Notes: generated by a model not told the origin, from the letters alone. Shown: positions 13,206 to 57,744, numbered from the whole stretch's first letter. The stretch: 63,756 nucleotides of DNA, filler included, from Reclinomonas americana ATCC 50394 (GCA_048213135.1; 24 parts of 24 records of this genome joined end to end with filler, not necessarily neighbours in it); one strand, 5' to 3'. Program-made: numbers and translations.

Positions 13206-13249
<44 letters not shown>

Positions 13250-13256
<7 letters not shown>

Positions 13257-13800
13257 GGAAGAGAGGTAGGCAGTGCGTGCTGCAGTGTGGCTTGGTGTGT
13301 TGCATGCAGAGGAGACAAGAGAAGATAAGAGAAAGGGAGAGACAGCTTCTGCATGCGCCTTCCCCTCACTGCGATGGCAAGAGAACAGATGAAAGAAAGG
13401 GAGGCAAGAGTGGAGCAAGTCTAGACGAGGTGCAGTCTGCTGCATGCTGTAAAGACAAGAGAGGGCGAAGCTGAGATCCCCGGCATCAGGGCCTTCCTCT
13501 CCTCTACCAGGAGAAAGAAAGGAAGGCAAGAGTGGAGCAAGTCTCGACGAGTTGCAGTCTGGTGCATGCAGAAGGGCAAGAGGAGCGAGAGAAGACAAGG
13601 GATGCTTTGCTGCATGCATGAGAAAGGAGAGAAGAGAAGAGAGACAAGAACGCAGCAGGTTTCGAGTGGTTGCAGTCTGCTGCATGCCTGGAAGAGACGA
13701 GAGAGAAAGACAGAGGCACTGCAATTCTCGGCTGGTTACTGCGTCGGCGAGTTGCTGCTGTCTGCTGCATGCAGAGGAGGGGCCTTCCCTTGCTCACTTC
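13250..13800. repeat. Degenerate ~120-bp tandem repeat (eukaryotic, probably intronic)
   Basis: Recurring GAGTGGAGCAAGTCT..TGCAGTCTGCTGCATGC cores near 13408, 13530 and 13652, following an (AG)n tract. Confidence 0.6.
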
Positions 13801-13829
13801 ACCTTCCCTCTGCTGCAGCCCGTTCGTCA

Positions 13830-15095
13830 GCGATGCGTCGACAACCGACTCTGTGTTTGGTCTGCGCGTTCGCGAGAGCATATCGTTGCTCCGTCGCTCT
13901 ACGCTCATTGGTGCACCACAGACGAGTCTGCCGTCATGTCTTCCTCGCTGGTGATCGCCGAGGGCGAGACCGTGTACGACTGTGTGTGGTATCCGCGGAT
14001 GAACTCGGCCGATGCGACCACGTGTGCACTGCTGAGCACGTCACGCGACCATCCCATTCACATGTGGGATGCGTTCACGGGGCATCTGCGGGCCACCTAT
14101 CGCGCGTACGATCACGTTGATGAGGTCACTGCGGCGCTGTCGGTGGCCTTTGATACCACTGGAACACGGTCTGTTCTCTCACTCCCCTGCCACCACCACC
14201 ACCAATTGACGGATGGCTTACCCGTGTGTGATGGCACAGCATCTTTGCCGGATTCGACGGGCACCTGCGGTCGTTTGATGTGTCGCGACCCGGGCGCGAT
14301 TGTTTGTGCGAACGACGAGTGTGGGATCGTGTAAATAGCGGCCAGAAGGGACTGCTGTCGACCATTGCACACTGTCCCGACGGTTCCGACATGCTGGCGG
14401 TCGGGGCGTACACGGGCAAAATCGGCTTGTACTCGGCCTCGGATCTCGATGTCATCTCCATCTTTGATGCGCAGCGGCAGGGTGTGACGCAGGTCAAGTT
14501 CTCGGCCGACGGTCGGTTGCTCTTTGCAGGAGGTCGGTGCATCCACTGTGCGTGCGTGTGTGAGAGAGTGGGGAGAGACTCATGATACAAGTGCAGGGCG
14601 AAAAAACTCGTCGATCCTATGTTGGGACATTCGATCGTCGCTCACCCCGCTCTACGAACTGGAGAGACGAGTGGATACCAATCAGCGCGTCACGTTTGAT
14701 ATTGACTCGTCTGGTCGGTGGCTGGCCAGCGGTGCCACGGATGGCGTGATTCGAGTTGCGACCACCCATCTTTCCCGACTTTCTCGTGTCAGCGACTCAC
14801 GCACCACGCGCAGGTGTACGACTTGTTGGATGGCCATCTCGAGTGCTCGTGGGATGCACACGAGGGCACGTCCGCGAATGGAGTCTCCTTTCATCCGACA
14901 GTGCCGGCGCTGCTGTCGTGCAGTGGTCAGCGGCAGAGAAGAGACCTTGCGTGGAACGATGACGACGAGCAGCCAGCAGCGGCTGCCGTGCCGCAAGATG
15001 TCAGCTTGAGAATATGGTCGGTGGCCAAGCAGTACGAGTGGACACCGCTGCCGGCGTCCGAAGCAGTAGTTGAGGACGTTGGTGAAGCAGAATAA
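13830..15095 (+). CDS. WRAP53: Telomerase Cajal body protein 1 (WRAP53/TCAB1) ortholog, spliced, 5' end unresolved
   Basis: [66 protein letters not shown] introns 14169-14239, 14533-14596 and 14755-14813 restore one frame. Confidence 0.9.
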
Positions 15096-15179
15096 TCATC
15101 ATTCTCTCTGCACGTTTACATTTTCTGTTATCTGTCATCCCCTCCCGTCGGCTGCTCGTTGCTTCTCGCGCACGCGCAG

Positions 15180-18100
15180 CTACTCGCTGCTCGGTTCGTC
15201 CGTCGACTGCTCGAAGCGCAACAGCTGCTGCACGCCTTCTGTGATTCGCCTGACGTCGTCAATCTCCACGTCGTGGGAGCACATGGGGCACGGTTGTTTC
15301 GTCTGCGCCAGCTTGAGGAACTCGCTAAAGAGTGCCGGGAAGCGGCAGTGGATGCACACAGTGGTGTCGCTCGCCACCATGTGTCGACCCTGCGAGCGGC
15401 GTTTTTTTGGTGAGAGAAGCGCAAGGAAGGAGAGATCACAGGGAGGGGCAGCAGCGCACCGTTGCAATGCAGTACGCGACAATGTTCTTGCAGTTCGGGC
15501 ACTCGAGTTGTGTGTTGTACAAGTCAAAGTCACAGAACGGGCACGGCGTTGTGGCCTCCTCCACATCCTCCGTCCAGTCCTTGCTCTTGCGCACAATGGC
15601 TGCATTGCACGTGAGCTTCCTTATCCCTTATGTCATCCATCCCTTCCCACTCACCCTCAATCTTCTTCTTGAAACGCTCGTCAATGTCGGCATGGTACTC
15701 TGGTCGCACCAGCACGCACGCATTCTCGTAGGCACTCTTGCGCAGCTCGGCACGGACGCACTCGATAACTGTGCTGGTCAAGATGGACACCGCGTGCGAG
15801 GGGAACTTGCTGAGATTCTTCGACACACGAAGCAGCATGCGAGCCGCCGCCATGTGGTCGGTCTTGGCGAGAGGCTGCACGAGAGAGGAAGAAGAGGTGA
15901 GCGGTGGAGCAGAATAATACGACAGGAAAGCCGCTCACGCTGAAACATCACCTTGACAAGAATGTAGCTGTGCAACAGCATGAGGTTCCGCCGCAAGTCG
16001 GCCGGAATCGGCACCTTGAACTTGACTGCATTCTGGTAGGCCTCCAGCAACAAATCGTGTGCCACCTTGTAGTTGCCCAGCTCCTGTGCGGTGATGGATG
16101 ATGAGGAGGAGTAAGCTTGCAAGAGCAAGACAAATGGTGAGGAGTGGTGAATGTGAGACGCAACTTGCTCCTGCCGAGCAATCAAGAGCGCCGTGCGCAC
16201 CGCCTGGCGGTAGTTGCCGAGCGCCATGTACAGCTTGAGCACGTAGTTGGCATCTTTGGGCACTCCGTCAAGATCGCCCATGAGGTAGTCAATCAGCCGG
16301 TTGGTAAGTGCTTCGTCACGCGCCTTGCCGACCACCTGTCCACCAGAGAGATGAGTGAGGGGCTTCAAGAAACTCCCACACTATAGCGAGTTTAAAGAGA
16401 CCTGAATGGCGGTGGTGATGTTAGCCTCGCCCGACTTGAGGAGCAGAGTGAGGGCGCGCTCAAAGTTGCCCGCCTCGCTGTACCAGTAGCCGGCCTTGCC
16501 GAGGTCGCTGCGGACGTGGGAGAAAGGGAGGAAGAAGGTGAGAGGGGGGATGGGGGAAGGGGAGGGAGGGAGGGAGGGAGGGAGGGGTAAGGAGGGAAGG
16601 AGGGCAAGGGGAAGAGGGGACGGGGGAAGGAGGAAGGAGGAAGGAGGAAGGGGAAGGAGGAAGGAGGAAGGGGAAGGAGGGGGAAGAAGAAGGAGAGAGA
16701 GAGAGGAGAAGGGAGGACGTAGAAAAGGCAGTCAGGAGGAAAAGAAGACGTTGCGCAGGATACAGGGAACGACAGGATGTAGAAGCTGACAAAGAGGGAG
16801 ACAGAAAGCTGGGAAAGTACTCATAGTCAGAGATATCGAGACAGAGCTGATGTGATCAAGACAGCAGAAGAGGGACACATGCAGAGCATACATACAAGCA
16901 CGCCACACAACACCATCCATTTTTCCTCTCGCCCTTTCCCCTCGTCTCAGCACTCACCCAATGCCCTCGAAGAACTCGGCAATGGCAATAAAGTCCGCCT
17001 CCATGCCGGCATCGCCCAGGCACCGGGCGTACACCTCCATCTTCTTGTGCTGCCGTGCCAATCGGAATGCGTCGTCCTTGCGCTTGGCCAGCAGCAGGAA
17101 CTCGACGGCGCTGTCCATGTCCCCTGTGCGATTATCATGTCAGCAAACTTGTGCTCCACAGTCCCCCCACTTGCCCACTTTCCCGCAACGCACCACGACC
17201 CTCGCAGAACTTGGCGAGCAACGACGCCGATTCCACACTTCGCGTCTCACGCACAATCGCAAAGACGCGGTCGGGCCGGTTGAGCTTCTCCAAACTGATG
17301 CGCACCACCGAGTCCATGTCACGAGCACGCTCGTACGCCAGCAGCGCCTCCTCGAATTTGCCCTCGCTCTCCTTGGCGCGCGCCAGCTGCAGATGCAGCT
17401 TCGGTGTGTTGATGTGTGGTACCAGCCGCTCCGCCATGGTGAAGTTCTTGTTGTAAATGTAAATGGCGGCCGCCTTGTCAAACATCTCGGCCTTCTCGTA
17501 CAGCGCACCGGCGTCGTTGAATTGCTTGAGTTCCTCCAAAATCTGAGCGCACTCCTTGCAGAGTGTGCTGTTGCCACTCTCCGAGGCCAACTCTGTGTGA
17601 AGCAAGAAAAAATGAGACGAAGCAACAACAGAACGAGGCCGACGGTGTGCGGGTGGCACGCAACGAATACCGCGACGAATGTCGCCCTGTCGCAGAGTGC
17701 ATCGCGCAATACCGGCGTGGCAGGCGGCGTCCTGCTGCGGCGAGCGGCCCACTCGGGCACGCTCGTACATGTTGACCGCCTGTCCGTATTCGCCACGGAA
17801 CTCCAGCTGCTGGGCGTACTCTTGGCAGATTTCAGGTACTTGCTCCGGTGCCATGGTGTCTGCCAGGCGGAGGGCCTGGTGAAGGGGGAAGGGTGAGGGG
17901 GGGAAGGGTGAGGGGGAAAGGGGAAAGGGGAAAGGGGGAAAGGGGGAAAGGGGAAAGGGAAGGGGGAAGGGGAAGGGGAAGGGGGAAGGGAAGGGAGGAG
18001 GGAACGGGACGGAGGAGGAGGAGGAGGAGGNNNNNNNNNNNNNNNNNNNNNNNNNNNNNNNNNNNNNNNNNNNNTTAATTAATTAANNNNNNNNNNNNNN

Positions 18101-20421
18101 NNNNNNNNNNNNNNNNNNNNNNNNNNNNNNGAAGGGGGAAGGGGGAAGGGGGAAGGGGGAAGGGGAAAGGGGGAAGGGGAAGAACAGCGAGAAAAGCAAA
18201 CATACGGACATACGGACAGACAGACTGACAGACAGCCAGACATACAGCCAGACACACAGACAGACATAGAGAAAGAGAAAGAAAGAAAGAGAGAGTGCGT
18301 GTGAGAGAGAAAAGTGAGTGGAAGAACAAGATGCAGCCGAAATGGGACAGGAAGGAAGTCAGCATCAATAGAAGATTGAGGATGAAACAATGGAGCGTGT
18401 TTGTGAGCCCGTACACATAGTGCCTGGAGCGACACAACGCGTGTGAAGTGGCTGCGAGTGCACACCATCACTTCATGCAAGGTGTTCTCTTCTGTGGCAG
18501 TGTGTATCGAGGCAAACAGATAGCCCATCGTTATGTGTTTCTCTCTCTCTTTCTCCCTCTCTCCTCTCCTCTTTCTCTCTCTCTCTCTCTCTCTCTATCC
18601 CCACTCCCTCTCCCCTTCACACACACACCTGATCCCAGTGCATCAAATCACGACGCATCTCCAGTGCCGCCAAGTGGTTCGACGACTTGAGGAAGTACTC
18701 CTGCGCTCGCGTGTAATCGCCGAGCAGCAGGGAGACCTTGCCGGCGAGGAAATTGCGCTCATCGTTGTGGCGAATCTTCTCCAGAGCCAGCACCATGCTG
18801 GCGTCGCGCAAGTGACGGTACACCAGAATGGCCAGATCAATATCGAGCACGTCCAACGCACGCTGCGTCAGTGCCTCCCAGCACGACTGCTGTTGGATTA
18901 CACAGGCCATGGTCCATGCATCTACACACCACACAGCGGCGGTTAGCAAAGGTCATGGATTTTTTTGAGCAGGCGCGGCGTGTACGTGCACGTGCCTCGC
19001 AGGCGGTAGAGGGAGAGCAAATTGTGGAATCGTCGAATGAGCTGCTCGTTTGACATGCGGTCAAAGGCGCTGGTGCTGACCAGCGCATGCGAGATGAGAT
19101 TGACGGCGGAGAATGTGCCGCCCGGTGTCTGCCAAGCAATGTCAGCAAAGAGACCTGTTGACCGACGAGGAAATGAAAGCAAACCTGGCAGTACACCACG
19201 CCGTTGATGAGGCACAAGCTCTCCCAGTCGCTCTGCGTCGGGGTATAGGCGCCAGAAGGCAGCACGGCGCTCGAGGCACCCACTGGACACGCATCGTCAA
19301 TGAATTACGAAATCCACACGACAACGTATTACCAAATAGCCTAACATACCTCGCTCCTCAGGCAGCGTCACAGTGTGCGCCTTGCACAGCTCGACCTTGG
19401 GGCCGGCACGAGTGGCCGGGTGGTACATGTACGTGTACACGTGGCCTTGGTCGGTGACCACAAACACCGAGGAGTCGGCACGATCCCACAGCACGCTTTG
19501 GTAGTGGTCTGCACCAACGCGTGAGTACCACAGACAGACGATCCTGCACGACAATCGCAGCGGAACGCAACTGGGGAAGTACGGAATGGGAATGATGAAA
19601 TTGTTGACGGGGTTGTAGAGGAAACCGCGGCGCATTTCGTCCACAAACACCACACGCGTGCCGAGCGGATTCGGGTACACGGCCGAGATGCCGCACTCGA
19701 AGCGGAACTGCGACACACTCTCCCAGTCCTCCAGCGAGAACAAGTGAATCGTGCCGGAGAGGGTGGCGTACACGAGGAAGGAGCCCGCAATGGCAAATGT
19801 GCTGGCATCGCGCGCATCGTCACTCTCCGGGAATACGCGCTCTGGGTACTCGGCGGCCGCCGCCGGATCAATGGTGTGAACCAGCACACGACCTCTGCAG
19901 CGAGCTCGTCAGACAACGCAAGAAAAGAAATCTGGTAAGGGGGGAGCCGCAACTCTGACAGCACCGCCGCCACGTTCTCATTGAGCTGGATGCGCACCAC
20001 CGTGCCGAGGTACTCGCGTTCACCAACCGATCGACTCGGCGTGGTGCCGCGGCCAATGGTGTAGAACCACACGCGGTTGTTCATGCCCGTGGCCACCTGA
20101 TACGACGGTGAGACAGGAATTGGGAAAGAGAGAGCGGGAGGAAGGGTGAGAAGGAGAGAAGATGACGCCGGGACACTGTGTTACTGCGTGTATGTAAGGG
20201 ATAGGGGCATCAATCTACTTCTTCTTCTCCTCTGTAAGTAGGAAAGGGTCGCAAGCATGCCTGTGCGTCCACTGCTCCTACTTTTCTCTCTATCATACTC
20301 TCTNNNNNNNNNNNNNNNNNNNNNNNNNNNNNNNNNNNNNNNNNNNNTTAATTAATTAANNNNNNNNNNNNNNNNNNNNNNNNNNNNNNNNNNNNNNNNN
20401 NNNTTCTTCTTCTCTCTCTCT

Positions 20422-20496
<75 letters not shown>

Positions 20497-20929
20497 CCTC
20501 CCTCTCTCAATCATCACAACAATGATCGACAATCAACTCTCCTTTTCCCCCCATTCTTCCCCCACTATCCCCCCATTATCCACCCCTTCTCCTCCCCATA
20601 TCCTCCCTCTCTCATCCACTCACCCCGCCGCCGACAGCGGTATCTCATTCAACAGCGCGCCCTGGCGATCCCAGATGTTCACGCGACGGTTGATGCCAAC
20701 CGACGCCAGGATCTGTCCATTGGGGTTCCACGCGAACAGCACAGGCCCCGGCCCGTGCGCAGACGCGTCGAGAGTAAACAGACGACTCTGCGCGGGAAAC
20801 ACAACACCCCAACACACACACACCGCCATGTCACGCACAATTTCACACAGACACACACACGCACACAGACGGCGATACACACACAAGACGCGCTCATTGT
20901 GTGTCGCTCTCTGTGTGCCCACTCACCAT
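15180..20929 (-). CDS. WDR19: Intraflagellar transport protein IFT144/WDR19, multi-exon, spanning three contigs
   Basis: First exon encodes only ATG (20929-20927), then [22 protein letters not shown]. Middle part [36 protein letters not shown]-terminus [37 protein letters not shown]. Roughly 340 aa are missing in the 20304 gap. Confidence 0.93.
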
Positions 20930-21198
20930 CTGCGCGCGTTGTCAAACGAAATTGCGCTTGGACAGTCGGTGCTCGCGCGTGACTGGACAATCGCATATCA
21001 CGCAGTTGCGTCCACGCGCATGCACACACGCTCACCCGCGACGCACGCACATCGCTTTCCTCGTTGACACACATGCGCACGCACTCACAACTGCACGAAA
21101 AAACCCACGCGCGGTTTTTCTCTTTACGCGATGTCATGCCATGTCTCACTCTCTCTCTTGCTCTTGCCCTCTCTGCCTCCCTCCCCACAAACAACAGC

Positions 21199-21459
21199 AT
21201 GACGGAGGTTGAGCTGTACTCGTCGTTGCAGAACCACGCTGCGGTGTTGGAAGCCGAGCTGCGCGAGGTGGAAATCGATTTGCAGACTCTGGAGACCATG
21301 GAACGCAAGTACGGCAACTACTTCTCCACCGGCTACCTCATGCTGATTGAGAAGCGCGCGGAGAAGACGGAGCAGTTGAAACGAGTTGCGATCGATCTCA
21401 TCGATCGGAGAAATTCAAAACCTTACGTTTCAGCTCCTCACAGGTGGCGGCATCGTTGA
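21199..21459 (+). CDS. Small hypothetical coiled-coil protein, divergent from IFT144
   Basis: MTEVELYSSLQNHAAVLEAELREVEIDLQTLETMERKYG..; coding-like composition; no family recognised. Confidence 0.4.
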   Translation: MTEVELYSSLQNHAAVLEAELREVEIDLQTLETMERKYGNYFSTGYLMLIEKRAEKTEQLKRVAIDLIDRRNSKPYVSAPHRWRHR

Positions 21460-21800
21460 GAGCGTTGGAGCATACGCTGCGCGACTCGTACTCGTTGCAT
21501 TCGCAGCTGCAGCACACAGAATCCGCGTTGTATCCGTCGTCTGCATCGGCCGCGTCGTCCTTGTCGTCGTCGAGCTCGTACATGATGGATAGCCCGTCGT
21601 TGCGCGTGACCATGCCATCGGGATCGNNNNNNNNNNNNNNNNNNNNNNNNNNNNNNNNNNNNNNNNNNNNTTAATTAATTAANNNNNNNNNNNNNNNNNN
21701 NNNNNNNNNNNNNNNNNNNNNNNNNNCAGTTCATTTGCGGGAACTGCGAAGGGGGGAAGTGAACGACGGGAAAGAAGGGCGCACGCCTCTCTCTTTCTCT

Positions 21801-22310: not shown

Positions 22311-22780
22311 TCTGTGCGTCTGTGTGTGTGTGTGAGTGCAACCATGATGCAGCGTTGATGAGCATGAGCGCGCACGCACTTGTTTGTGAGCGAAACGATG
22401 TTACCCGGAAGAAACTCGGAGCAGCAATGTGTCGGTTTTCCGATTTTGGAACATTCCATTTCCCTTCCCCGCCCCGCCCCTTACAGTTGCATGTATTCGG
22501 CCACCTAAGTGTATGCAGAGGTGACGGGAAGACGGAGTTGCCATCGCGTGCTCGAAAAGCTCGAGGAAAATGCATATTAACTCCAACAAGGAGCCACTGT
22601 AGACCCACTTGTTTCCCCCTTCTGCAGCTCTGCATGCATGCATCTGCTTTCAACTTACCCCCATACGTCTGCGTACCATGCATACATCTTCGACGTCAAC
22701 AGCTCTTGTGGCACTCGCGGCGACCCGACTAAAAGACAAGCGCACTCCGATGCATGCTTCATTGTTCCACGCCTGCTCCC

Positions 22781-25577
22781 TCACGACGATGGCGGTGGCT
22801 GCGGAGGCGGTCCCTGTCCCGACGGTGGCGGCTGTCCATAGTACGGTGCGTATGGCATGTAGCCCGCTGGAAGGGTGGGCATGGGCAGTGGAGGCGGCGG
22901 GCCCGGTGATGGGCCACCCTGTCGCCCAGGCGGAGCGGCGCCCGGTGGCTGTTGCTGCGGTGGTGGTCCGACGGAAGAAGGCGGTGGTCCACCTGGTGCG
23001 CCGGTAGGCGGCGGATATGCGTACATGTTCGGCGGCGGAATCATGGGCGCGTAAGGTGCCTTGCCCGGCGGGGGAACCATCGGCAGCATGTTGGGCGGCA
23101 TGCCCGGCTGCTCGGGACATAGCGTGAGCACACAGGAGTAGAAGAGGCAAAGTGAGAGACGTCACAAACCATGGGAACGTGGCCCGAGGGTGGCGGCGGC
23201 TGTTGCGGCATCGGCGCCATGGGTGGCGGGTATGCGGACGACTGTGGCGGTGGTCCACGTTGACCCTGCGCATTCGGTGGAGCCCACTGTTGTGTGCCCG
23301 ATCGAGAGTGAGTGCATGGCTCTCTGCAAAATGCACACACACACACGGCGACGCAGTCACCTGTCCGGGCTGCTGTGGAGGTGGCGGTTGCTGGAGGCCT
23401 TGCGGTGCGTATTGCATGTTTGTCGGCGGCGGCCCGTACGCCATCTGCGGTGCGCCGGGCGGAGGCATGTACTGCGGCGGCTGTCCCGGGTGCGACGGTG
23501 GCGGCTGTCCCATCATCACCGGCTGCGGCTGTCGCATTTGCTGCGGCATCTGCTGTGGCATGCCTGGCTGCGACTGGGACGACTGCGAGGTCTGCTGCGT
23601 TTGCGATGGTGGCGGCACCATGCCGAGGTGCGGCATGGGTGGCGGCTGTCCGTGGTGACCCTGTTGCGCCGCTGCTGCCGCCGCCGCTGCCGCTGCGGCA
23701 GCTTGGTGAGCCGCCATTTGATGCTGGTGTTGTGCCTGCTGCGCCTGCTGATGCTGGAGAGCCTGCTGCTGCGCCTGCTGCTGTGCGTGTGCCTGCGCCT
23801 GTGCTTGCTGTTGCTGGGGTGGCGGTGGTACGGCGGAATCGCGCACAGACACTGTCTGGCCACCGCGCACGTACAGCGCCTTGAACTGGCGCACGTAGCG
23901 CTCGGCGGCCGAGGCGTTGCCGAGAACCACACGCTCCACTTGCACATTGGTGGCCTGACTGAGGCTGCTGTTGGCGTCCGGCAGCGTGCCCGAGCGGATG
24001 AGGCACTCGTGCAGACCGTGCGGTCGCACGTACACGGTGAGGCTGCAGCAGGCGTTGTTCCGACCGCGGAATTCGACACTGCGCACCGTGCCGCCAACTT
24101 GCCAGATGGGCGGCTGGCGCTGTTGTGAGTTCTTGAGGAGGGCATTGACGACCTCGGTCGGCGCGTACACGCGCTTGCCCGGCGGCACCGTGTCGCGAAT
24201 GGTGTCGGGATTGGTGTTGGGCGTCAGCAGCACCGGCACCTTGGCGGCGGCCGTGGCATTGGCCGTGTCCACAAAGCTCGACAGCAGACCGGCGCGCTTC
24301 TTGCGCAGCAGATCTGAGTGGGCGGGGGCGAGACGTGCCAGCGCGGCCGCCGACACACGGGCGGGCAGACGCTCGCGCGAGCCTTGCTGCAGAGCGCGGG
24401 CTTCGGCGCGGGCGAGCGCGTCGTCGAACTTGCGGCTGTTGTAGTGCACGAGGCTGGCGATGCGGCACACGTCGGGACTCGTGTCGAGGCAGATGGGCGA
24501 TTCGGTCTCCGCGAGCACCGTCGACAGCAGTTGTAGTCGCTCCTGGGGTAAAAGAAGAAGGGGGTGAGATTGGGGGGGGGGAAGGGAGCAGGGGAAAAGG
24601 GAGAGGGGGAGGGAATAGAAAATGCGGAGTGATGCGGGCAACAAACCTCCTCGCTGCCATTGCAATGCGATTCAAGGTCGCGATACAGAGTGCCTTGTGT
24701 TGGCTTCAACAGAACGCGCCATGATTGGAGGTACTGCGTGGCGAGGAAGTGGTGAGCTCGCAGTGCAATCAAGTACACGCACATTCTCTCTCTCTCTCGC
24801 CCTCCACCTCACCTTGGTCCTCGAGTCGCGCACTTCCACCACCACACACCCGTCGTAGTATATCACGGGCAGAAAATTGATCTCCTCCAAAAAATCGGCG
24901 GCCAGCACGCCCGCGTCAACATCGCGCAACACCGACCGCGTCGAGTGCGTGTACGGCACGCATTCTTGCTGTGTGACCGCGCTCGTGCCGGGCGCCGGTT
25001 GCAGGCAGAATCCGTGCGGAGTCACGTGCAGAATGAGCGACACGTGCAGCGGCGCGCCGACCACAGCCAGGCGTGTGGTATCGGCAGCAGCTGGCGCCGC
25101 CGACGCACTCGCACTGCCGCCACTTGTGCTGTCGCTGCTGTCGGTTGCCTCGGTCACGTGCTGCAGCACCGGCCGCACCGCCTCAATGGCGAATCGCGGT
25201 CCCGAGCGCAAGCCATACATGGGCGTCTCGCGCAGCGACAGAGCTCGCACTATGCGCATGCGCTCCACCAGACCCGTCTGCGGACCCACCACCAGCGGGC
25301 GCGCTCCGTACGTGCGCTCCACACATTGTAGCACCCACTGCTCGAATTGCGAGGCAGGCACTGGCGCAGCATCCCCCAACGACGACGACGCGGGTCTCGT
25401 CTTGCGCTGACGCCGCTCCACGTCCTCGGCGTCACCATCATCATCGTGGTCCACGTCCATAACGCCGCCGTCGTCATCGGCATCATCGTCGTCCTCCGCG
25501 GACTCGATCTTGCGTACTTTGCGAGGTCGCACACGTGAGCCGGGGCCAGAGGCCGCGGAGGAGGCAGTGCGTGTGGC
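22781..25577 (-). CDS. Spt20-family SAGA subunit with a Gln/Pro-rich tail, spliced, 5' end unresolved
   Basis: SLILHVTPHGF..PY..YYDGCVVVEVRD..RVLLKPT..LYRDL..ESPICLDTSPDV resembles the Spt20 domain; followed by poly-Q/A/P exons. Confidence 0.72.
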
Positions 25578-26190
25578 CTGTGTGGGAGGAGATTGGGAAA
25601 GAGAAAGCAATTTGGCCAATGGGCGATCTTTGCTGCGAAGGCACAGTCGAAGCCAGCTATCCACAGCAATACAAAGAGGGAAGAGTGGAAAGCGCGCAGA
25701 GAGCGTGCGTGCAAGAGAGTGCAAAGAGCACGTGCACAACCCACCCATCCACTCGCTCCACAGAAACAGAAAGAGAGAGAGAACAGAATGCGCACTGAGT
25801 GTGAAAGAGAGAAGGAACGCCATGCACTTGAACAATGAGCGATCTATGCGCAGCGAATGTACACCATGCACTCGCACTAGCACCCATCCCCTCACTCCAC
25901 AGAAGCAAAGAGAGAGAGAGAACGAAAAGTGCACTGAGAGTGTGCATAAAGAAGTGAACAATGCACTTGACACTCAGCAATCAATGCACCGCGAATGCAC
26001 ATAAACAATGCACATGCATTTGCACCACTAATCCACTCACTCTCCCACACAGAGAGAAATCAACGCGCACACGCAGACAACTCGCCATGTNNNNNNNNNN
26101 NNNNNNNNNNNNNNNNNNNNNNNNNNNNNNNNNNTTAATTAATTAANNNNNNNNNNNNNNNNNNNNNNNNNNNNNNNNNNNNNNNNNNNN

Positions 26191-26225
<35 letters not shown>

Positions 26226-26881
26226 GAGAGAGAGACAGAGACAGAGAGAGAGCACAGAGAGCGAGACAGAGAGAGTGTAGTTGTGTGTGGTGTATGTGCG
26301 TGTGTGCGTGCATGTGCGTGTGTGCGTGCATGTGCGTGTGTGAGAGAGAGAGTGAGTGAGTTAGCGAGGTGAAAGTGCGTGTTTGGCGCGCGCGCATATG
26401 TGTGAAAGGCACTTTGATGGTGTGCAAACCTGTGCTCTTTGTGGATGACTGTGAAGAGGAGAGCGCGGCGGGGGGAGGCGCTGCGGTTTCCACTCGTGGC
26501 AGAGTGAAGGAGAGGCGAGTGGCCATCTCTCTCACACGAAAGACAACAAAAATGAGTGTCCTGTGGTGGTCGAACTCGTGGCGAGTTGCATGCAGGTGCG
26601 CCTCGTGGCTGCATGAGTGTACGAGCGATTGTGTAGCTTGGGGACTGCAGCTGCTTTCGTTGCTGTCATCGAGTTCAGGCAAGTGGAACTTCGACTTCGA
26701 CGTCAACTGCATGCACAATGGTCGGTGCCTCATCCAGCCGCGCGCTCTGTGTTACAGTACAACATGTTTCCCCCTCCAGCGCACCGGTCAGAAAGCTTTC
26801 CTTGTGAGAACAAGTTCACTCTGCGGTCGACGAAGTCGCGGACAACTCTTTAAATTTGTTGCCCACTTGCCTTGACGCGCC

Positions 26882-27976
26882 ATGATCAGCAGCAAGACCC
26901 TGCATGGGCACACCGCGTGGGTATGGTCCGTCGCTGTGTTTCCAGACAGCCAGCTGATTGCAAGTGGAAGTGATGACCAGACAGTGCGTGTGTGGTCTCT
27001 GGCGAGTGGTGAGGAGGTGCGGCGATTTGAAGGACGACACATGGGCTGTGTGCGATCGGTGGCCGTCACTCCCGATGGTCAGCATGTTGTAAGTGGGAGT
27101 GATGACTGTGTCGTGCGAATGTGGTCGCTGGCGAGTGGCGAAGAGGTGCGACGATGGGAGGGACATAGTAAGAGAGTGTTGGCTGTTGCCGTCGCTCCCG
27201 ACGGCCGGTGCGTCGTTAGCGGCGGCGCTGACAAGACAGTTCGTGTGTGGTCCTTGGCGAGTGGCGAAGAGGTGCGGCGATGGGAGGCACACACGAGCGT
27301 GGTGCTGTCTGTTGCCGTCACTCCCGACAGCCAGCACGTGGTGACTGGGAGTGCTGACAAGACAATGCGGCTGTGGTCACTGGTGACGGGCGAGCAAGTG
27401 AAGCTGTTGGCCAGATTCGATGGTGCGGTGGTGTCCATCGCCATCACTCCCGATAGCCAGCACATTGTGAGCGGCCTTGCGGACAAGACAGTGCGCGTGT
27501 GGTCACTGGTGAGTGGAGAGCAGGTGCTACGGTTGGCGGGGCACACTGGCGTGGTGTGGTCTGTTGCTGTCACCCCCGATGGTCAGCACATTATGAGTGG
27601 GGGCGATGACCGGACAGTGCGAGTGTGGTCACTGGCGAGTGGGGAGCAAGTGCGCCAGTTGGGGGGACACACCGGTTGGGTGTATTCTGTCGCCGTTGCT
27701 CATGATCGCCAGCACGTTGTGAGCGGAGGCTGGGATAGTGTCTTGCGCATGTGGAGCACACCGTGCGGACTGGCCAGCGGCGAGCTTCGTAATGCTCGTT
27801 TGGCCATGCGCGCTGTGCAGGAGATGCAGCGAGAGGGGAGTGAAGAAGAAGAAGAAGAAGAAGAAGAAGAAGAAGAAGCTCGCTGCCTTCCGGAGATTGT
27901 GCTGCGTTGTTTCATCGTCGAAGAGGCAGAAGTCATCGTGTATCGGTGTCGCACTGATCCCGATCTGTGTTGGTGA
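26882..27976 (+). CDS. Intronless 7x WD40 protein with conserved C-terminal module (array copy 1)
   Basis: Seven GH..V.SVAVTPDGQH.VSG..D.TVRVWS repeats, then STPCGLASGELRNARLAMRAVQEMQ-polyE-RCLPEIVLRCFIVEEAEVIVYRCRTDPDLCW. Confidence 0.9.
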   Translation: MISSKTLHGHTAWVWSVAVFPDSQLIASGSDDQTVRVWSLASGEEVRRFEGRHMGCVRSVAVTPDGQHVVSGSDDCVVRMWSLASGEEVRRWEGHSKRVLAVAVAPDGRCVVSGGADKTVRVWSLASGEEVRRWEAHTSVVLSVAVTPDSQHVVTGSADKTMRLWSLVTGEQVKLLARFDGAVVSIAITPDSQHIVSGLADKTVRVWSLVSGEQVLRLAGHTGVVWSVAVTPDGQHIMSGGDDRTVRVWSLASGEQVRQLGGHTGWVYSVAVAHDRQHVVSGGWDSVLRMWSTPCGLASGELRNARLAMRAVQEMQREGSEEEEEEEEEEEEARCLPEIVLRCFIVEEAEVIVYRCRTDPDLCW

Positions 27977-28105
27977 ACGAGGCCAATGAAGTTCGCGCGT
28001 CGTCGCAGTCTGTCGTCCCGCAGCGCGTGCAATCAGACTCACACGAACAGCACACCTTCTTTGCGCTCTCTTTCTCTCTCTCTCTCTCTCCCTGCTCGTG
28101 TTATC

Positions 28106-29029
28106 ATGTCCTTCTCTCGCACTCTCCCCCTGAGCAACACCCTGCGCGGACACACAGGTGATGTGTGGTCCGTCACCACGACTCCCGATTGCCAGCGCAT
28201 TGTTAGTGGGAGCCATGACAGCACAGTTCGCGTGTGGTCTGCGGCGAGTGGTGAGGAAGTGCAGCGGCTGGAGGGGCACACTGAAAAGGTGCGATCGGTT
28301 GCTGTCACTCCCGACGGCCAGCACATTATCAGCGGCAGTAATGACATGAGTGTGCGAGTGTGGTCCGCGGAGAGCGGAGAGGAGGTGCGACGGTTGAAAG
28401 GTCACACGAACATGGTGTTCTGTGTCGCCATCACTCCCGATGGTCAGCGCATCGTGAGTGGCAGCACAGACAAGACTGTGAGGGTGTGGTTNNNNNNNNN
28501 NNNNNNNNNNNNNNNNNNNNNNNNNNNNNNNNNNNTTAATTAATTAANNNNNNNNNNNNNNNNNNNNNNNNNNNNNNNNNNNNNNNNNNNNCGGTCGCTG
28601 GCAAGTGGAGAGGAGGTGCGACCGTTGGTGCGACTCAATGGAGCAGTCATGTGTGTCACTGTCACTTCCAATGGACAGCATGTTATGTGTGGGTGCATGG
28701 ACAGCGGGGTTCACATATGGTCCACGGTCGCTGGCGAGGAGGTGCACCGACTGGATGGGCATACTGGGTGGGTGTCGTCTGTTGCCGTCACTCACGACGG
28801 TCAGCGCGTCGTGAGTGGCAGTGTGGACAAGACGGTGCGAGTGTGGTTGTCGCCGTGTGGGGCGGCTTGCGACGAGCTGCGCGACGCCCGCGTGGCCATG
28901 CACGCCGTGCAGGAGATGCAGACGGAGGATGAACGAGGCGCACGTTGCCTGCCGGAGTTGGTGCTGCGCTGTTTCATTGTCGAGGAGGCGGAAGTCGTGG
29001 TGTATCGTCGGCGGTTCGATTGTTGGTAA
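28106..29029 (+). CDS. Intronless WD40 protein with C-terminal module (array copy 2, interrupted by the 28492 gap; may be two genes)
   Basis: Three repeats before the gap; two repeats plus tail (..ELRDARVAMHAVQEMQTEDERGARCLPELVLRCFIVEEAEVVVYRR) after it. Confidence 0.8.
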
Positions 29030-29189
29030 TCGTGAGAGTGTACTTTGTTGTCTCGTTGCTTTCAAGGCGTTTCCAGCCTCTTCTATCTGCGAGCAAGCAA
29101 CACACGTCGAGCCTCGTCGTCGCGGTCCTGCGCGCAAAAGACGGACAGGAATCCACACTCGTTCCGGCAGCCGTTCCTCCCTCCTCCCC

Positions 29190-30260
29190 ATGTCGTCGAC
29201 TCCATGCATGTGCCTGTGCGGGCACACCAACGAAGTGTGGTCAGTTGCCGTCACTCCCGACGGCCAACATGTAGTGAGTGGGAGCGAGGATATGACTGTG
29301 CGTGTTTGGTCACTGGTGAGTGGCGAGGAGGTGCAACGAATGGAGGGGCACACAGACCGAGTGTGGAGTGTTGCTGTCACTCCCGATGGTCAGCATGTGG
29401 TGAGCGGCAGTTGGGATAAAACAATGCGTGTGTGGTCACTGGCAACTGGAGACTTGGTGCGACGCATTCGACTGCCAGGGTCCTCACGAAGGGTGCTGTC
29501 TGTGGCCATCACACCCAATGGTCGACACATTGTGAGCGGCGGCGGAGACTGCACAGTGCGAGAGCTATCGGTGGCGAGCGGTGAGGAAGTGCGATGTCTG
29601 GAAGGCCACTATGAAGAAGTGTTGTGTGTCGCCGTCACTCACGATGGCCAGCACGTTGTGAGCGGCGGCATGGACGAAACATTGCGTGTGTGGTCGCGCG
29701 CGAGTGGCGAGGAGGTGCGGCGATGGGATGGCCACACTGGCAATGTGCAAGCTGTTGCCGTCACTCTCGACTGCCACTTTATAGTGAGTGGCAGTGGAGA
29801 TGGTACCGTGCGAGTGTGGACACTGGCGGAGGGAGAAGTGCGACGACTGGAGGGCCACGCAGGTGCAGTACGTTCAGTGGCCGTCACTCCCTGTGGCCAG
29901 CACGTCGTGAGTGGTGGCGACGATGGAACGGTGCGCGTGTGGTCAATGGCCAGTGGCGTGCAAGTGTGCCGACTCAAAGGTCATTCAGAAGCCGTGTGGA
30001 CTATCGCTGTCACTCGAGACGGTCAGCGCGTCGTGAGTGGGAGCCTTGACAAAACTGTGCGTGTGTGGAGCCCACCGTGCGGTCTGGCCAGCGATGAGCT
30101 GCGCAGTGCCCGCGTGGCCATGCAAGCCGTGCAAGAGATGCAGACGGAAGATGAAAGAGGTGCCCGCTGCTTGCCAGAGATCGCACTGCGTTGCTTTATC
30201 GTCGAGGAGGCAGAGGTTGTGGTGCATCGGTGGCGAACCGACCCCGATATGCGGTGGTGA
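29190..30260 (+). CDS. Intronless 7x WD40 protein with C-terminal module (array copy 3)
   Basis: MSSTPCMCLCGH start; seven repeats; tail ..LPEIALRCFIVEEAEVVVHRWRTDPDMRW. Confidence 0.9.
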   Translation: MSSTPCMCLCGHTNEVWSVAVTPDGQHVVSGSEDMTVRVWSLVSGEEVQRMEGHTDRVWSVAVTPDGQHVVSGSWDKTMRVWSLATGDLVRRIRLPGSSRRVLSVAITPNGRHIVSGGGDCTVRELSVASGEEVRCLEGHYEEVLCVAVTHDGQHVVSGGMDETLRVWSRASGEEVRRWDGHTGNVQAVAVTLDCHFIVSGSGDGTVRVWTLAEGEVRRLEGHAGAVRSVAVTPCGQHVVSGGDDGTVRVWSMASGVQVCRLKGHSEAVWTIAVTRDGQRVVSGSLDKTVRVWSPPCGLASDELRSARVAMQAVQEMQTEDERGARCLPEIALRCFIVEEAEVVVHRWRTDPDMRW

Positions 30261-30389
30261 GTCAATGAAGGTGGCCCTTTGGTAAACTTCGAATCGTCCG
30301 TCCCGCACGCATATCAACGACAGCCACGCGAAGAGCACTCCTCCCTCTCACACACTTCACTTCTCACCGTCGCTCCTTCCCTATTCCGC

Positions 30390-31466
30390 ATGTCATCGCC
30401 TCCCACTCTTCCTCTCTGCAAGTGCCTGCACGGACACACTGCAGCAGTGCTCTCCGTCGCCTTCACTCCCGACGGGCAACACGTTGTGAGTGGCAGCTGC
30501 GACGCCACAGTGCGCGTGTGGTCACTGATGAGCGGTGAAGAGGTGCGACTGATGGAGGGACACACGCACATCGTGTACTCTGTCGCTGTCACTCCAGATG
30601 GCCTGCACATTGTGAGCGGAGGCTGGGACAGAACAGTGCGCGTGTGGTCACTGGCAACGGGGGAGCTCGTGCGACAGTTGGAGGGTCACACTGATTCTGT
30701 GCGATCTGTGGCCGTCACTCCCGATGGTCAGCACATAGTGAGTTGTGGTCATGACTGCACAGTGAGACTCTGGTCGCTGGCGAGTGGAGAGGAGGTGCGG
30801 CGACTGAAGGGACACAAGGATTGGGCGCAGTCTGTTGCCATCACTCATAATGGCCAGTTCATCGTGAGTGCAAGTCGCGACTGCGAGCTGTGCGTGTGGT
30901 CTGTGGCGAGTGGTGAGCAAGTGCGCCAGCTTGAGGGACGTGTGACGACTGTTGCTGTCACTCCCGACGGGCAGCATGTGGTCAGTGGCAGCCGCGACAC
31001 CTCAGTGCGAGTGTGGTTGCTGGCGAGTGGCGAGGAGGTACGACGGATGGATGGCCACTCTAATTGGGTAGTGTCTGTCGCCGTCACTCCCGATGGCCAG
31101 CATGTTATCAGTGGGAGCTGGGACAAAACAGTGCGGGTGTGGTCGCTGGCGAGTGGAGAAGAGGTGTGTCGTTTGGAGGGCCACACTGAACGGGTGTGCT
31201 CTGTTGCTGTCACTCGCGACGGTGAGCGCATCGTGAGCGGCTGCGGTGACAAGACAGTGCGCGTGTGGAGCACGCCGCGCGGTCTGGCAAGCGACGAGTT
31301 GCGCGACGCACGCTTGGCGATGCGTGCCGTGCAAGAGATGCAGCGAGAGGGTGATGGGGAAGAAGATCGTCGCTGCCTTGTAGAGATCGTGCTGCGTTGT
31401 TTTATCGTCGAGGAGGCAGAGGTTGTGGTGTATCGATGGCGAACCGATCCCGATATGCGGTGGTGA
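30390..31466 (+). CDS. Intronless 7x WD40 protein with C-terminal module (array copy 4)
   Basis: MSSPPTLPLCKCLHGH start; seven repeats; tail ..LVEIVLRCFIVEEAEVVVYRWRTDPDMRW; stop at the contig end. Confidence 0.9.
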   Translation: MSSPPTLPLCKCLHGHTAAVLSVAFTPDGQHVVSGSCDATVRVWSLMSGEEVRLMEGHTHIVYSVAVTPDGLHIVSGGWDRTVRVWSLATGELVRQLEGHTDSVRSVAVTPDGQHIVSCGHDCTVRLWSLASGEEVRRLKGHKDWAQSVAITHNGQFIVSASRDCELCVWSVASGEQVRQLEGRVTTVAVTPDGQHVVSGSRDTSVRVWLLASGEEVRRMDGHSNWVVSVAVTPDGQHVISGSWDKTVRVWSLASGEEVCRLEGHTERVCSVAVTRDGERIVSGCGDKTVRVWSTPRGLASDELRDARLAMRAVQEMQREGDGEEDRRCLVEIVLRCFIVEEAEVVVYRWRTDPDMRW

Positions 31467-47023: not shown

Positions 47024-49302
<2,279 letters not shown>

Positions 49303-50538
49303 GTTGTAGTGGTGATTGATGATGGTGGTGAGTCTCGAGTACAAGAGAGATGCCTCGTTGTTTTGCATTCGGACACACCGAGATTTGGCTCGGTCCACTT
49401 GCATGTTGATCCCGGCATGCGCGCCCTCGCCCACAATGTCTTTGTGGTGCTTCGTGGGTGGCGACACAAGAGGTCGAGTTTGCACACTGCTTGGAGGTCG
49501 GCAAGACCTTCGGGTCTTCGCCAAACTCAAAAATTGGAACGATACAGAGAAGATTAGCTTGGCCCCTGTGCAAGGATGACACGCAAAGACGAGAGTGTTC
49601 CAATGTTTTTTTTTGCTAGTTACCAGGGTGGCCGAGTGCGGGGGAGAGGGAGGTGAGATGTGGGAGCAACAGGCCTCCTTCACACAGATCAGCGACCTCC
49701 ACGCGGTTGCAATTGATTTCAAGGAGTGGATCACACTCGAACACACAGTAGATCACACAACTGTGCTGTCGTTGCGGTCGGGAAAGCACCGTTGTTGCTG
49801 TGGGTGTTCATGCCTTTCGTACTGATCCTCACCACAAACTTGACGGTTGCTCGCTGCTCGGATCCGTCGAATCGCCGATATCGATATCGATTTCGACCAA
49901 CATCATTTGCGTCGCTTTCCTTCGTCGTACTGCCAACGTGCAACAAGTACTGCACATCAAAGTTGCTCTCTTCACCGGTGCAAAGGCGATCAGAAATCGA
50001 CGAGAAACCGACGCAATTGCCCAAAACGTTATGTAACGGCTCGCACTTACAGTCCCAAACGATCAACTATCACAGCGCAGAGAGACGACGACACATGGGC
50101 GTCTTCCTCTCCCGTGTGAGTGCCTCCTCCAGCAGCACAACCACCACCACTACAAAAGGAGGCAAACGCAGCTCACTCAGCATCAACATCGACGAGGATG
50201 CTCCCTCTGCCTCTGGAGCAGCAGGAGAGTCTCTGTTGGACGATGAGCGTGTGTTGTGCGCGCAGTGTTTTTGCTTTTGGTTTTGCCCTCCGAAGATTGC
50301 ATGTGCCGTGGACGTCGAATTGCCGATATCGATATCGATTTCGACCGACATCATTTGCTTCGCTTTCCTTCGTCGTACTGTCAACGTGCAACAAGTACTG
50401 CACATTGCAGGTGCTCTCTTCACCGGTGCAAAGGCGATCAGAAATCGACAAGAAACCGAATTGCCCAAAAACGTTATGTAACGGCTCGCACTTACAGTCC
50501 AAACGATCAACTATCACAGCGCAGAGAGCGACGACGAC

Positions 50539-57744
<7,206 letters not shown>

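What the first reader, a model, noticed from the sequence alone, without database searches (positions are those of the whole stretch)
26882..31466. Tandem array of intronless, surface-variable WD40 genes: candidate diversified recognition system in a protist
Seen: at least four head-to-tail genes of ~1.1 kb with spacers of only 129-160 bp. The three complete copies each have seven ~42-aa WD40 repeats on a highly uniform scaffold (SVAVTPDGQHVVSG..D.TVRVWSLASGEEVRR). The residues in GH-x-x-x-V-x (TAW-W, SKR-L, TNE-W, TDR-W, YEE-L, THI-Y, KDW-Q, TER-C) and in SG-x-x-D-x (SD-Q, GA-K, GW-S, SE-M, GM-E, SR-C, CG-K) differ in almost every blade. Known: these positions form the ligand-binding top face of beta-propellers, and equivalent positions are hypervariable in the internally homogenised WD40 domains of fungal HNWD/NLR non-self receptors (Podospora HET-E/HET-D). 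Unlike those proteins, these have no NACHT or HET domain. Inference: a lineage-specific expanded family of stand-alone sensors or substrate receptors under diversifying selection (pathogen, prey or non-self recognition), evolving by repeat shuffling.
Basis: partly seen in the sequence, partly recalled or inferred. Interest (0 to 1): 0.85.

Follow-up and report, generated by a model that had tools for sequence, protein, structure and literature searches.

The report
Old tandem family of WD40 propellers
A flagellated protist whose DNA is mixed into this assembly carries a row of small seven-bladed WD40 proteins that keep the same scaffold and a new helical tail but have a different binding face in every copy; they are old, stable paralogues rather than a rapidly shuffling immune-type repertoire.

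Summary
The sequence observation holds. There are three complete genes (26882-27976, 29190-30260, 30390-31466) and two gene fragments. All are seven-blade-type WD40 proteins with 129/160/129-bp spacers. An assembly joint (28492-28591) cuts the second gene, so the array lies on two pieces.

Across 26 aligned blades, variability peaks at the WD40 top-face hot-spot positions (R1-2, R1, D-1 and D+1). These are the four positions under positive selection in Podospora HNWD repeats. All 26 combinations differ.

The proposed mechanism is not supported. Blades are only 64% identical in DNA (maximum 78%). Synonymous divergence is about 1. I found no gene-conversion tracts, and the repeat tree is a star. 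The scaffold and tail are under purifying selection (omega about 0.19). The hot-spot sites are saturated, so dN/dS above 1 cannot be tested with these copies.

A conserved ~60-residue C-terminal helical hairpin has no Pfam or PDB match. Among 1.84 billion representative proteins it recurs in only two, one of them a Reclinomonas americana EST.

Best reading: an old, lineage-restricted birth-and-death family of stand-alone WD40 adaptors. Each has its own ligand face and all share a docking or oligomerisation tail. Interest is moderate.

The parts
26191..28491 (.). Assembly piece X (2301 bp, GC 0.58). It starts with (AG)n/(GT)n microsatellites and is eukaryote-type.
26882..27976 (+). G1: complete gene, 364 aa, with 7 WD40 blades and a C-terminal tail that carries a 12-Glu linker.
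27755..27973 (+). G1 tail module (conserved helical hairpin).
27977..28105 (+). 129-bp spacer with a CT-rich tract before the ATG. It resembles the G4-G5 spacer (86/129 matches, z 3.5).
28106..28491 (+). G2 5' fragment with blades 1-3. It runs off the end of piece X.
28492..28591 (.). Artificial linker (N44-TTAATTAATTAA-N44) marking an assembly joint or gap.
28592..31466 (.). Assembly piece Y (2875 bp, GC 0.60).
28592..29029 (+). 3' gene fragment with two blades and the tail. It is possibly the rest of G2.
29030..29189 (+). 160-bp spacer.
29190..30260 (+). G4: complete gene, 356 aa, 7 blades and tail (tail 30069-30257).
30261..30389 (+). 129-bp spacer.
30390..31466 (+). G5: complete gene, 358 aa, 7 blades and tail (tail 31269-31463). 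Its stop codon is the last codon of piece Y.

Best explanation
These genes form an old, lineage-restricted tandem family in a compact-genome flagellated eukaryote (probably jakobid-like) whose DNA is mixed with bacterial contigs in this assembly. Each gene encodes a small protein with no recognised targeting or effector domain, presumably cytosolic. The protein is one very regular seven-bladed WD40 propeller followed by a conserved ~60-residue helical hairpin.

Shown:
- The scaffold, the bottom-face loops, the DHSW stabilising tetrad and the tail are under purifying selection.
- The three classical top-face hot-spot residues of every blade, plus the residue after the conserved Asp, differ in all 26 blades and between paralogues.
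- The hot-spot residues are strongly enriched in Trp.

Inferred:
- Each paralogue binds a different protein or peptide ligand on its top face.
- The shared tail couples all of them to one common partner, or oligomerises them. This is an adaptor or substrate-receptor logic.
[quoted passage not shown] It did not evolve by ongoing concerted evolution or repeat shuffling.
For: WD40 propeller:
- Pfam gives 7 repeats in each of the 3 complete proteins.
- The AF2 model has pLDDT 90.3 and 7 blades.
- The best PDB folds are PkwA 5yzv (40% id, rmsd 0.9), WRAP-T designer propellers, 2ymu and WDR5.

Where the variation lies:
- Entropy is 2.7-3.5 bits at columns 18, 23, 24, 26, 42 and 44. It is 0.6-1.8 bits in the a-b and c-d (bottom) loops.
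- In the model these columns lie at the end of strand d, in the d-a loop, at strand a residue 2 and in the b-c turn.
- They correspond to R1-2, R1 and D-1 (PMC3419727).
- The DHSW tetrad is kept: H 22/26, S 24/26, D 26/26, W 25/26.

Selection and age:
- Scaffold omega is 0.19 with dS about 1.05 over 325 blade pairs.
- Tail omega is 0.18 with dS about 0.9.
- Hot-spot Trp is 15/103 against 3% expected (p 4e-7). All 26 of 26 hot-spot combinations are distinct. Same-index blades of different paralogues share 8/82 hot-spot residues, against 131/1275 for all pairs.

No homogenisation:
- DNA identity is mean 0.64, maximum 0.78.
- No conversion tracts were found.
- The tree is a star. Only blade 1 forms a clade (100/100), with (G1,G2) and (G4,G5) as neighbours.
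- The G1-G2 and G4-G5 spacers are alike, z 3.5.

Tail:
- 19 invariant columns across the 6 tails aligned (4 from the window, plus P0121 and P0122).
- Predicted as a helical hairpin alone, pLDDT 79.6.
- No Pfam or PDB relative.
- Only 2 hits in 1.84e9 representatives. One is a Reclinomonas americana EST, 65% identical to G5 over the last blade and tail.

Eukaryotic context:
- A collinear WDR19/IFT144 gene lies on neighbouring pieces.
- A U6 snRNA is present.
- Intron-poor genes and 44-691-nt spacers are normal in the jakobid Andalucia godoyi (PMC7050145 passages).
Against: - No ligand, partner, localisation or expression datum exists for these genes.
- The docking or oligomerisation role of the tail is inference only.
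- The source genome is not held, so the family size is unknown.
- The five copies are too diverged to separate neutral from positively selected change at the hot spots. A past phase of diversifying selection or repeat exchange is not excluded.
- Blades 2-7 show no positional orthology between paralogues (0.669 against 0.670 DNA identity, p 0.52). Ancient shuffling would also produce this.
- Identical residues use the same codon more often than expected (0.544 against 0.382), so synonymous saturation is not complete.
- Organism assignment is weak. The conserved WDR19 and Dim1 fragments have no close named relative.
Confidence: 0.55

Rival explanations
1. One reading: an HNWD-like, rapidly diversifying non-self, pathogen or prey recognition repertoire. 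It would be kept uniform by repeat exchange and driven by positive selection on the top face.
For: - The four most variable positions flank a conserved V and a conserved D with 18-residue spacing. This matches codons 7/9 and 25/27 around conserved 8 and 26 in Podospora HNWD repeats (PMC1805685).
- All 26 hot-spot combinations are distinct and Trp-rich.
- The genes are arranged in tandem.
- The scaffold is far more uniform (57% mean aa identity) than the 10-20% quoted for ordinary WD40 proteins (PMC1805685).
Against: - HNWD repeats reach 100% identity and cluster by genome. Here DNA identity is 0.64 (maximum 0.78), dS is about 1, there is no excess of long identical runs, and the tree is a star.
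- The paralogue tails are equally old, dS 0.5-1.2.
- There is no NACHT, HET, TIR or other signalling domain. The only PADLOC match is a generic WD40 stretch of one large model.
- dN/dS at the hot spots cannot be estimated because of saturation.
Confidence: 0.15
2. The two pieces are bacterial, for example from a planctomycete- or cyanobacterium-like contaminant, and not protist. The genes would then be ordinary prokaryotic repetitive WD40 genes in an operon-like row.
For: - The genes are head-to-tail, intronless and 129-160 bp apart.
- The best full-length hits are metagenome proteins with almost the same scaffold (P0001, 59% identity over 77% of G5). The named hits are cyanobacterial, actinobacterial and fungal.
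- The best solved fold is bacterial PkwA.
- 16 of the 24 pieces of the window are bacterial-type.
Against: - Piece X begins with the same (AG)n/(GT)n microsatellites as the other eukaryote-type pieces. Its GC is 0.58-0.60, against 0.64-0.69 for the bacterial pieces.
- The only close tail-bearing relative is a cDNA (EST) of the jakobid Reclinomonas americana.
- The nearest held bacterial genome, G001, has no family member. Its one match has 22% identity and E 1e-5.
- The tail was not found in 185,579 species genomes. Two scans gave one 13-residue chance-level match.
Confidence: 0.07
3. An origin variant that is compatible with the best explanation. The propeller was acquired by a bacterivorous protist from a bacterium carrying a highly repetitive WD40 gene. 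It then gained the tail and expanded.
For: - The scaffold (the SVAVTPDG / VVSGS / TVR.W type) is shared at 50-59% identity with unnamed metagenome proteins that carry other N-terminal regions.
- Repetitive WD40s are enriched in Cyanobacteria and Planctomycetes but also occur in fungi and protists (PMC5587647 passages).
Against: - The taxonomic origin of the best hits is unknown.
- Consensus-like WD40 repeats converge in sequence, so similarity is weak evidence of descent.
- No phylogeny was possible for saturated 42-residue units.
Confidence: 0.15

Closest known systems
Podospora anserina HNWD/NWD family (HET-E, HET-D, HET-R): the WD40 domain of fungal NLRs
   Same: Both have 42-residue, unusually uniform WD40 repeats. 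Variability is concentrated at the same four positions, which flank a conserved hydrophobic residue and the conserved Asp on the top face (PMC1805685).
   Different: - There is no HET or NACHT domain.
- The repeats are only 64% identical in DNA, against up to 100% in HNWD.
- There is no sign of concerted evolution.
- A new C-terminal tail is present.
Highly and moderately repetitive WD40 proteins (Hu et al. 2017), e.g. Thermomonospora curvata PkwA (5yzv) and Nostoc 2ymu
   Same: - The scaffold is consensus-like with a full DHSW tetrad.
- They are the best structural matches (40% id, rmsd 0.9).
- Internal repeat identity of 0.56-0.59 falls in the 'moderately repetitive' band of 0.4-0.7.
   Different: - That paper reads high internal identity as recent repeat duplication. 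Here synonymous sites are near saturation, so the uniformity is maintained by selection.
- These proteins are stand-alone, with a unique tail in place of kinase, TIR or STAND modules.
Cullin-RING substrate receptors built on WD40 propellers (F-box/WD40 such as beta-TrCP/Cdc4; SOCS-box WSB1). The comparison is recalled, not tested.
   Same: The logic is the same: a variable propeller face for the target plus a short conserved helical module for docking to common machinery. Such families are often expanded in tandem.
   Different: - No F-box or SOCS-box was detected. 0 of 4 window tails has a Pfam match at E 0.01 or better.
- No PDB sequence or fold match was found.
- In F-box/WD40 proteins the F-box lies N-terminal to the propeller (recalled).
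Reclinomonas americana EST-derived protein EP00694_P005839 (P0121) and the unnamed 394-aa protein P0122
   Same: These are the only proteins found with the same tail. P0121 is 65% identical to G5 over the last blade and tail. P0122 keeps the STP..LA..EL and VLRCFI.E.AEV motifs.
   Different: P0121 is a 116-aa fragment. P0122 has much more divergent, irregular blades, so the tail is conserved over a longer span than the uniform scaffold.

Membership tests
WD40 repeat beta-propeller (PF00400) | Seven ~40-residue repeats matching the profile and folding as four-stranded blades. | tested here: met
   There are 7 stretches in each of the 3 complete proteins, E down to 1e-77. AF2 gives 28 strands in 7 blades, pLDDT 90.3.
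WD40 repeat beta-propeller (PF00400) | DHSW hydrogen-bond tetrad. | tested here: met
   H 22/26, S 24/26, D 26/26, W 25/26 blades. The definition comes from PMC3419727.
Fungal HNWD/NLR (HET-E/HET-D type) | N-terminal HET or other effector domain plus a NACHT NTPase. | tested here: not met
   Only WD40-type Pfam families were found. The N-termini are 5-15 residues long before blade 1. No family hit was found upstream of G1 on piece X (protein 80).
Fungal HNWD/NLR (HET-E/HET-D type) | Repeats homogenised at DNA level by concerted evolution (up to 100% identity, clustering by genome). | tested here: not met
   - DNA identity is mean 0.64, maximum 0.78.
- Identical-run test: 26 nt against null 26.2; 7 runs of 20 nt or more against 7.8.
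- The tree is a star.
Fungal HNWD/NLR (HET-E/HET-D type) | dN/dS above 1 at four top-face codons. | tested here: inconclusive
   The same four positions are the most variable. But pN is 0.61-0.62 at the six most variable columns and 0.61-0.83 at the four in the three paralogue comparisons, and pS is 0.56. Both are near saturation.
Highly-Repetitive (HR) WD40, Hu et al. 2017 | Internal repeat identity of 0.7 or more. | tested here: not met
   The values are 0.56, 0.57 and 0.59. They fall in the Moderately-Repetitive band of 0.4-0.7 (PMC5587647). My identity measure may differ in detail from theirs.
F-box/WD40 or SOCS-box/WD40 ubiquitin-ligase receptors | A recognisable F-box or SOCS-box. | tested here: not met
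   hmmscan of the 4 window tails at E up to 10 gave no F-box or SOCS-box. One tail had only DUF4398 and N_peptide at E 0.05-0.11. No PDB match was found. Profile-profile comparison was not possible.
Conserved housekeeping WD40 orthologue (WDR5, RACK1, G-beta, WDR3 etc.) | One-to-one orthology with a single specific family. | tested here: not met
   45-48 propeller families match each protein non-specifically. The best named proteins are at most 48% identical and have other architectures. WDR5 is 30% identical. There are five paralogues side by side.
Gcp1-3 (Pex7-like WD40 proteins co-occurring with the mitochondrial T2SS in jakobids, heteroloboseans and others) | Orthology to Gcp1-3. A PTS1 signal is predicted on most Gcp1 proteins. 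| not tested
   I read passages of PMC8134430 only. Its sequences are in supplementary data that I did not open. The C-termini here end in RW or CW, which does not resemble the recalled PTS1 pattern.

The most novel reading that the evidence does not exclude
A jakobid-lineage, germline-encoded recognition repertoire. Many stand-alone WD40 propellers would each carry a unique Trp-rich top face, all wired through a previously undescribed C-terminal helical-hairpin module to one effector or degradation pathway. That would be an NLR-independent counterpart of the fungal HNWD system, used by a bacterivorous protist to recognise prey, symbiont or viral proteins. The present old copies would be the fixed products of earlier diversifying selection.
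Probability: 0.12. Interest if true: 0.75.

Novelty: new variant of a known kind. Interest (0 to 1): 0.4.

Why it matters
- It shows that the 'uniform scaffold, hypervariable top face' pattern can be held for a very long time by purifying selection alone, without concerted evolution. That pattern has so far been read as a signature of young or homogenised repeats. Internal repeat identity is therefore not a safe clock for repeat age.
- It defines a new ~60-residue tail module, seen here only in the window's eukaryote, in a Reclinomonas EST and in one unnamed contig, that marks a protist-specific WD40 family.
- If the tail docks to a common machine, the family would be a compact natural library of propeller binders.
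- It flags this assembly as a mixture of eukaryote and bacterium.

Tried and rejected
- Whole genome of the window: not held, so no genome-wide count was possible.
- Nearest held genome G001: one weak generic WD40 match only.
- Sequencing runs for piece Y: none was listed and no RNA holder was listed. I therefore made no expression test and did not use read laying.
- Tail profile or pattern scans: metagenome contigs twice, genome contigs twice and viral contigs once. None gave a relative. The only result was a 13-residue, 69% match in a Hydrogenophaga MAG (L002) at an E-value relative to 3 candidates, which I take as chance.
- ESM Atlas on the tail: no usable hit.
- Complex prediction with two copies of the tail (residues 288-358 of G5): no verdict, score 0.00 against a mark of 0.32, and the alignment was not used. 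This is evidence neither for nor against.
- Earlier scan notes: nothing.
- Organism identification: the WDR19 fragment is at best 51% identical to Diphylleia and 35-45% to trypanosomatids. The Dim1 fragment is at best 86% and 78% identical to unnamed records, then 72% to EukProt entries without a species label. A paper search for their accession prefixes found 0 papers.
- Trypanosomatid origin, my first guess from the microsatellites: rejected on these identities.
- F-box or BC-box likeness of the LPEIVLRCF stretch, noticed by eye: no support from Pfam, PDB sequence or fold searches.
- dN/dS at the hot spots by Nei-Gojobori: not estimable because of saturation.
- Picking only low-pS blade pairs: rejected as selecting noise.
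- PADLOC and NCBIfam: generic propeller matches only.
- One search was an empty script.

Full report
**What the window is.** The 63,756-base window is not one molecule. It holds 24 assembly pieces joined by identical linkers (44 N, TTAATTAATTAA, 44 N).
- Sixteen pieces have GC 0.64-0.69 and no dinucleotide microsatellites. They look bacterial.
- Eight pieces have GC 0.54-0.62, and seven of these carry (AG)n/(GT)n tracts.
- The whole assembly is not held. The nearest held genome, G001, is a 6.4-Mb bacterium that shares 25% of the window's sampled words. It has only one weak generic WD40 match to the genes studied here (22% identity, E 1e-5).
- The eukaryote-type pieces carry a WDR19/IFT144 intraflagellar-transport gene, a U6 snRNA (49500-49610), a Dim1-type rRNA dimethylase, an Spt20 SEP domain and armadillo repeats.
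- The WDR19 gene is collinear on the minus strand across three successive pieces (20404-21626, 18131-20303, 13206-18030). At least there, the linkers mark gaps inside one scaffold.

**The observation.** On the + strand there are five ORFs:
- G1, 26882-27976, 364 aa.
- A 5' fragment, 28106-28491, with three blades. It runs off its piece.
- A 3' fragment, 28592-29029, with two blades and the tail.
- G4, 29190-30260, 356 aa.
- G5, 30390-31466, 358 aa.

Spacers are 129, 160 and 129 bp. The linker at 28492-28591 lies between the two fragments, so the array sits on two pieces. That the fragments are halves of one gene is plausible, given the WDR19 precedent, but it is not shown.

Pfam WD40 matches all five ORFs, with seven stretches in each complete protein. 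A tblastn of G5 against the window finds family members only on these two pieces. An AlphaFold model of G5 is a seven-bladed propeller (mean pLDDT 90.3, pTM 0.85) followed by two helices at falling confidence.

**Where the variation lies.** I cut the proteins into 26 blades and aligned them.
- Entropy is highest at columns 42 (3.49 bits), 24 (3.24) and 26 (3.12), followed by 44, 18 and 23 (2.7-2.9).
- No other column that is filled in most blades exceeds 2.11 bits.
- The a-b loop (TPDGQ) and the c-d loop (LASGE) are conserved.
- In the model, the variable columns are the last residue of strand d, the d-a loop, the second residue of strand a and the b-c turn.
- Columns 24, 26 and 42 are the R1-2, R1 and D-1 hot spots that Wu et al. 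found to mediate most top-face contacts (PMC3419727, passages read).
- Columns 24/26 and 42/44 flank a conserved V and the conserved D with 18-residue spacing. This matches codons 7/9 and 25/27 around conserved 8 and 26, which are under positive selection in Podospora HNWD repeats (PMC1805685, passages read).
- All 26 four-residue combinations differ.
- Same-index blades of different paralogues share 8 of 82 hot-spot residues, the same rate as all blade pairs (131 of 1275).
- Trp makes up 15 of 103 hot-spot residues, against about 3% expected from base composition (p 4e-7).

The faces are therefore different in every copy, and they are not neutral filler.

**How the family evolves.**
- Over 325 blade pairs, scaffold codons give pS 0.56 (dS about 1.05), pN 0.18 and omega 0.19. 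Hot-spot codons give pN 0.62.
- The tails of the paralogues give dS 0.5-1.2 and omega 0.18.
- Mean DNA identity between blades is 0.64 and the maximum is 0.78.
- Internal amino-acid identity is 0.56-0.59 per protein.
- I shuffled synonymous codons among blades within each column. The observed longest identical run is 26 nt, against 26.2 ± 3.2 in the shuffles. There are 7 runs of 20 nt or more, against 7.8 ± 3.0. So there are no conversion tracts.
- Identical residues use the same codon in 54% of cases, against 38% expected. Some common ancestry is still visible.
- An IQ-TREE tree of the 26 blades is a star. Only blade 1 forms a clade (100/100), with (G1, 5' fragment) and (G4, G5) as pairs.
- Outside blade 1, same-index and different-index blades are equally similar (0.669 against 0.670, p 0.52).
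- The G1-G2 and G4-G5 spacers still resemble each other (86 of 129 matches, z 3.5). The other five spacer pairs do not.

Together these results indicate tandem duplication of gene-plus-spacer units long ago, followed by independent divergence under strong purifying selection on scaffold and tail. Hot-spot and synonymous sites are both near saturation, so dN/dS above 1 can be neither shown nor excluded.

**The tail.** The last ~60 residues are 71-81% identical among the four copies in the window.
- They have no significant Pfam match (0 of 4 tails at E 0.01 or better) and no PDB sequence match (best E 0.32).
- A profile of the four tails was run against 1.84 billion representative proteins. It found two proteins.
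- P0121 is a 116-aa product of a Reclinomonas americana EST in EukProt. It is 65% identical to G5 over the last blade and tail.
- P0122 is an unnamed 394-aa protein with much less regular blades but the same STP..LA..EL and VLRCFI.E.AEV motifs.
- Nineteen columns are invariant across the six tails.
- Folded alone, the tail is an antiparallel helical hairpin (pLDDT 79.6). It has no significant fold match (best E 1.7).
- No relative was found in the JGI metagenome contigs, 185,579 species genomes or IMG/VR.

**Organism.** The WDR19 and Dim1 fragments have no close named relative. WDR19 is at best 51% identical (Diphylleia) and 35-45% to trypanosomatids. Dim1 is at best 86% identical to an unnamed record. 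The only family-specific link is to the jakobid Reclinomonas. In the jakobid Andalucia godoyi most genes lack introns and spacers run 44-691 nt (PMC7050145, passages). The intronless, closely packed layout is therefore ordinary for such a genome and is not a special property of this family. I regard 'jakobid-like flagellate' as likely but unproven.

**What it most likely is.** I read the genes as a lineage-restricted family of stand-alone WD40 adaptors.
- Shown: the propeller fold; the conserved scaffold, tetrad, bottom loops and tail; the unique Trp-rich top faces; the old age of the copies; the tandem origin.
- Inferred: each paralogue binds its own ligand on the top face, and the common tail docks to shared machinery or oligomerises the proteins.
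- The logic resembles WD40 substrate receptors of cullin-RING ligases. No F-box or SOCS-box is detectable, so this is a functional analogy only.

**Comparison with known kinds.**
- The propeller belongs with the consensus-like repetitive WD40s. Its best folds are PkwA 5yzv, WRAP-T designs and 2ymu. Its best sequence hits are metagenome proteins with nearly the same scaffold, at 59% identity.
- By Hu et al.'s cut-offs it is 'moderately repetitive' (PMC5587647, passages).
- It is not an HNWD/NLR. It lacks the NACHT and effector domains and lacks DNA-level homogenisation.
- It is not a one-to-one housekeeping orthologue.
- The Pex7-like Gcp1-3 WD40 proteins of T2SS-bearing protists (PMC8134430, passages) could not be compared, because I did not open the supplementary sequences.

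**Verdict.**
It is wrong on repeat shuffling. It is untestable here on diversifying selection.
- Novelty: a new variant of a known kind, namely a repetitive WD40 propeller with a new tail, held uniform by selection rather than by concerted evolution.
- Interest is moderate (0.4).

Noticed in passing
whole window; linkers listed: The window is a chain of 24 assembly pieces. 16 are bacterial-type (GC 0.64-0.69) and 8 are eukaryote-type (GC 0.54-0.62, microsatellites). The assembly is therefore a mixture of a bacterium and a flagellated eukaryote.
   Followed up: partly
13206-21626, minus strand: A WDR19/IFT144 gene is collinear across three successive pieces, so the linkers there are scaffold gaps. 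Inside the pieces the reading frame changes several times, for example a 62-nt break near 19894-19955. This points to short introns or frameshift errors.
   Followed up: partly
49500-49610, + strand: A full-length U6 spliceosomal RNA (86 bits, E 1e-20) lies on a eukaryote-type piece.
   Followed up: no
47675-49193, + strand: A Dim1-type rRNA adenine dimethylase is split over two reading frames (47675-48379 and 48570-49193). Its best relative is an unnamed record at 86% identity.
   Followed up: partly
22653-25973, minus strand: An Spt20 SEP-domain ORF is followed by a long Gln/Pro/Ala-rich ORF. This is probably one gene for a SAGA-type subunit with a low-complexity tail.
   Followed up: no
55117-57267, + strand: Armadillo-repeat matches fall in three different frames of the 7.9-kb eukaryote-type piece. 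Again this suggests introns or frameshifts.
   Followed up: no
27977-28105 and 30261-30389: Two of the three intergenic spacers keep shared blocks (CAATGAAG, CGTCCCGCA, CACGCGAA.AGCAC) and end in a C/T-rich tract just before the ATG. These are possible conserved 3'-end or promoter signals of the duplicated unit.
   Followed up: partly
P0001, P0004 (metagenome proteins): Unnamed metagenome proteins carry blades with almost the same scaffold (SVAVTPDG..VVSGS.DKTVRLW.LATGKEVRRF.GH) and the same variable positions, behind unrelated N-terminal regions. This is a lead for a bacterial origin or for convergence.
   Followed up: no
14232-14582, + strand: A further, unrelated WD40-like ORF lies beside the WDR19 gene. 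By eye it resembles a TCAB1/WDR79-type protein. That name is recalled, not tested.
   Followed up: no
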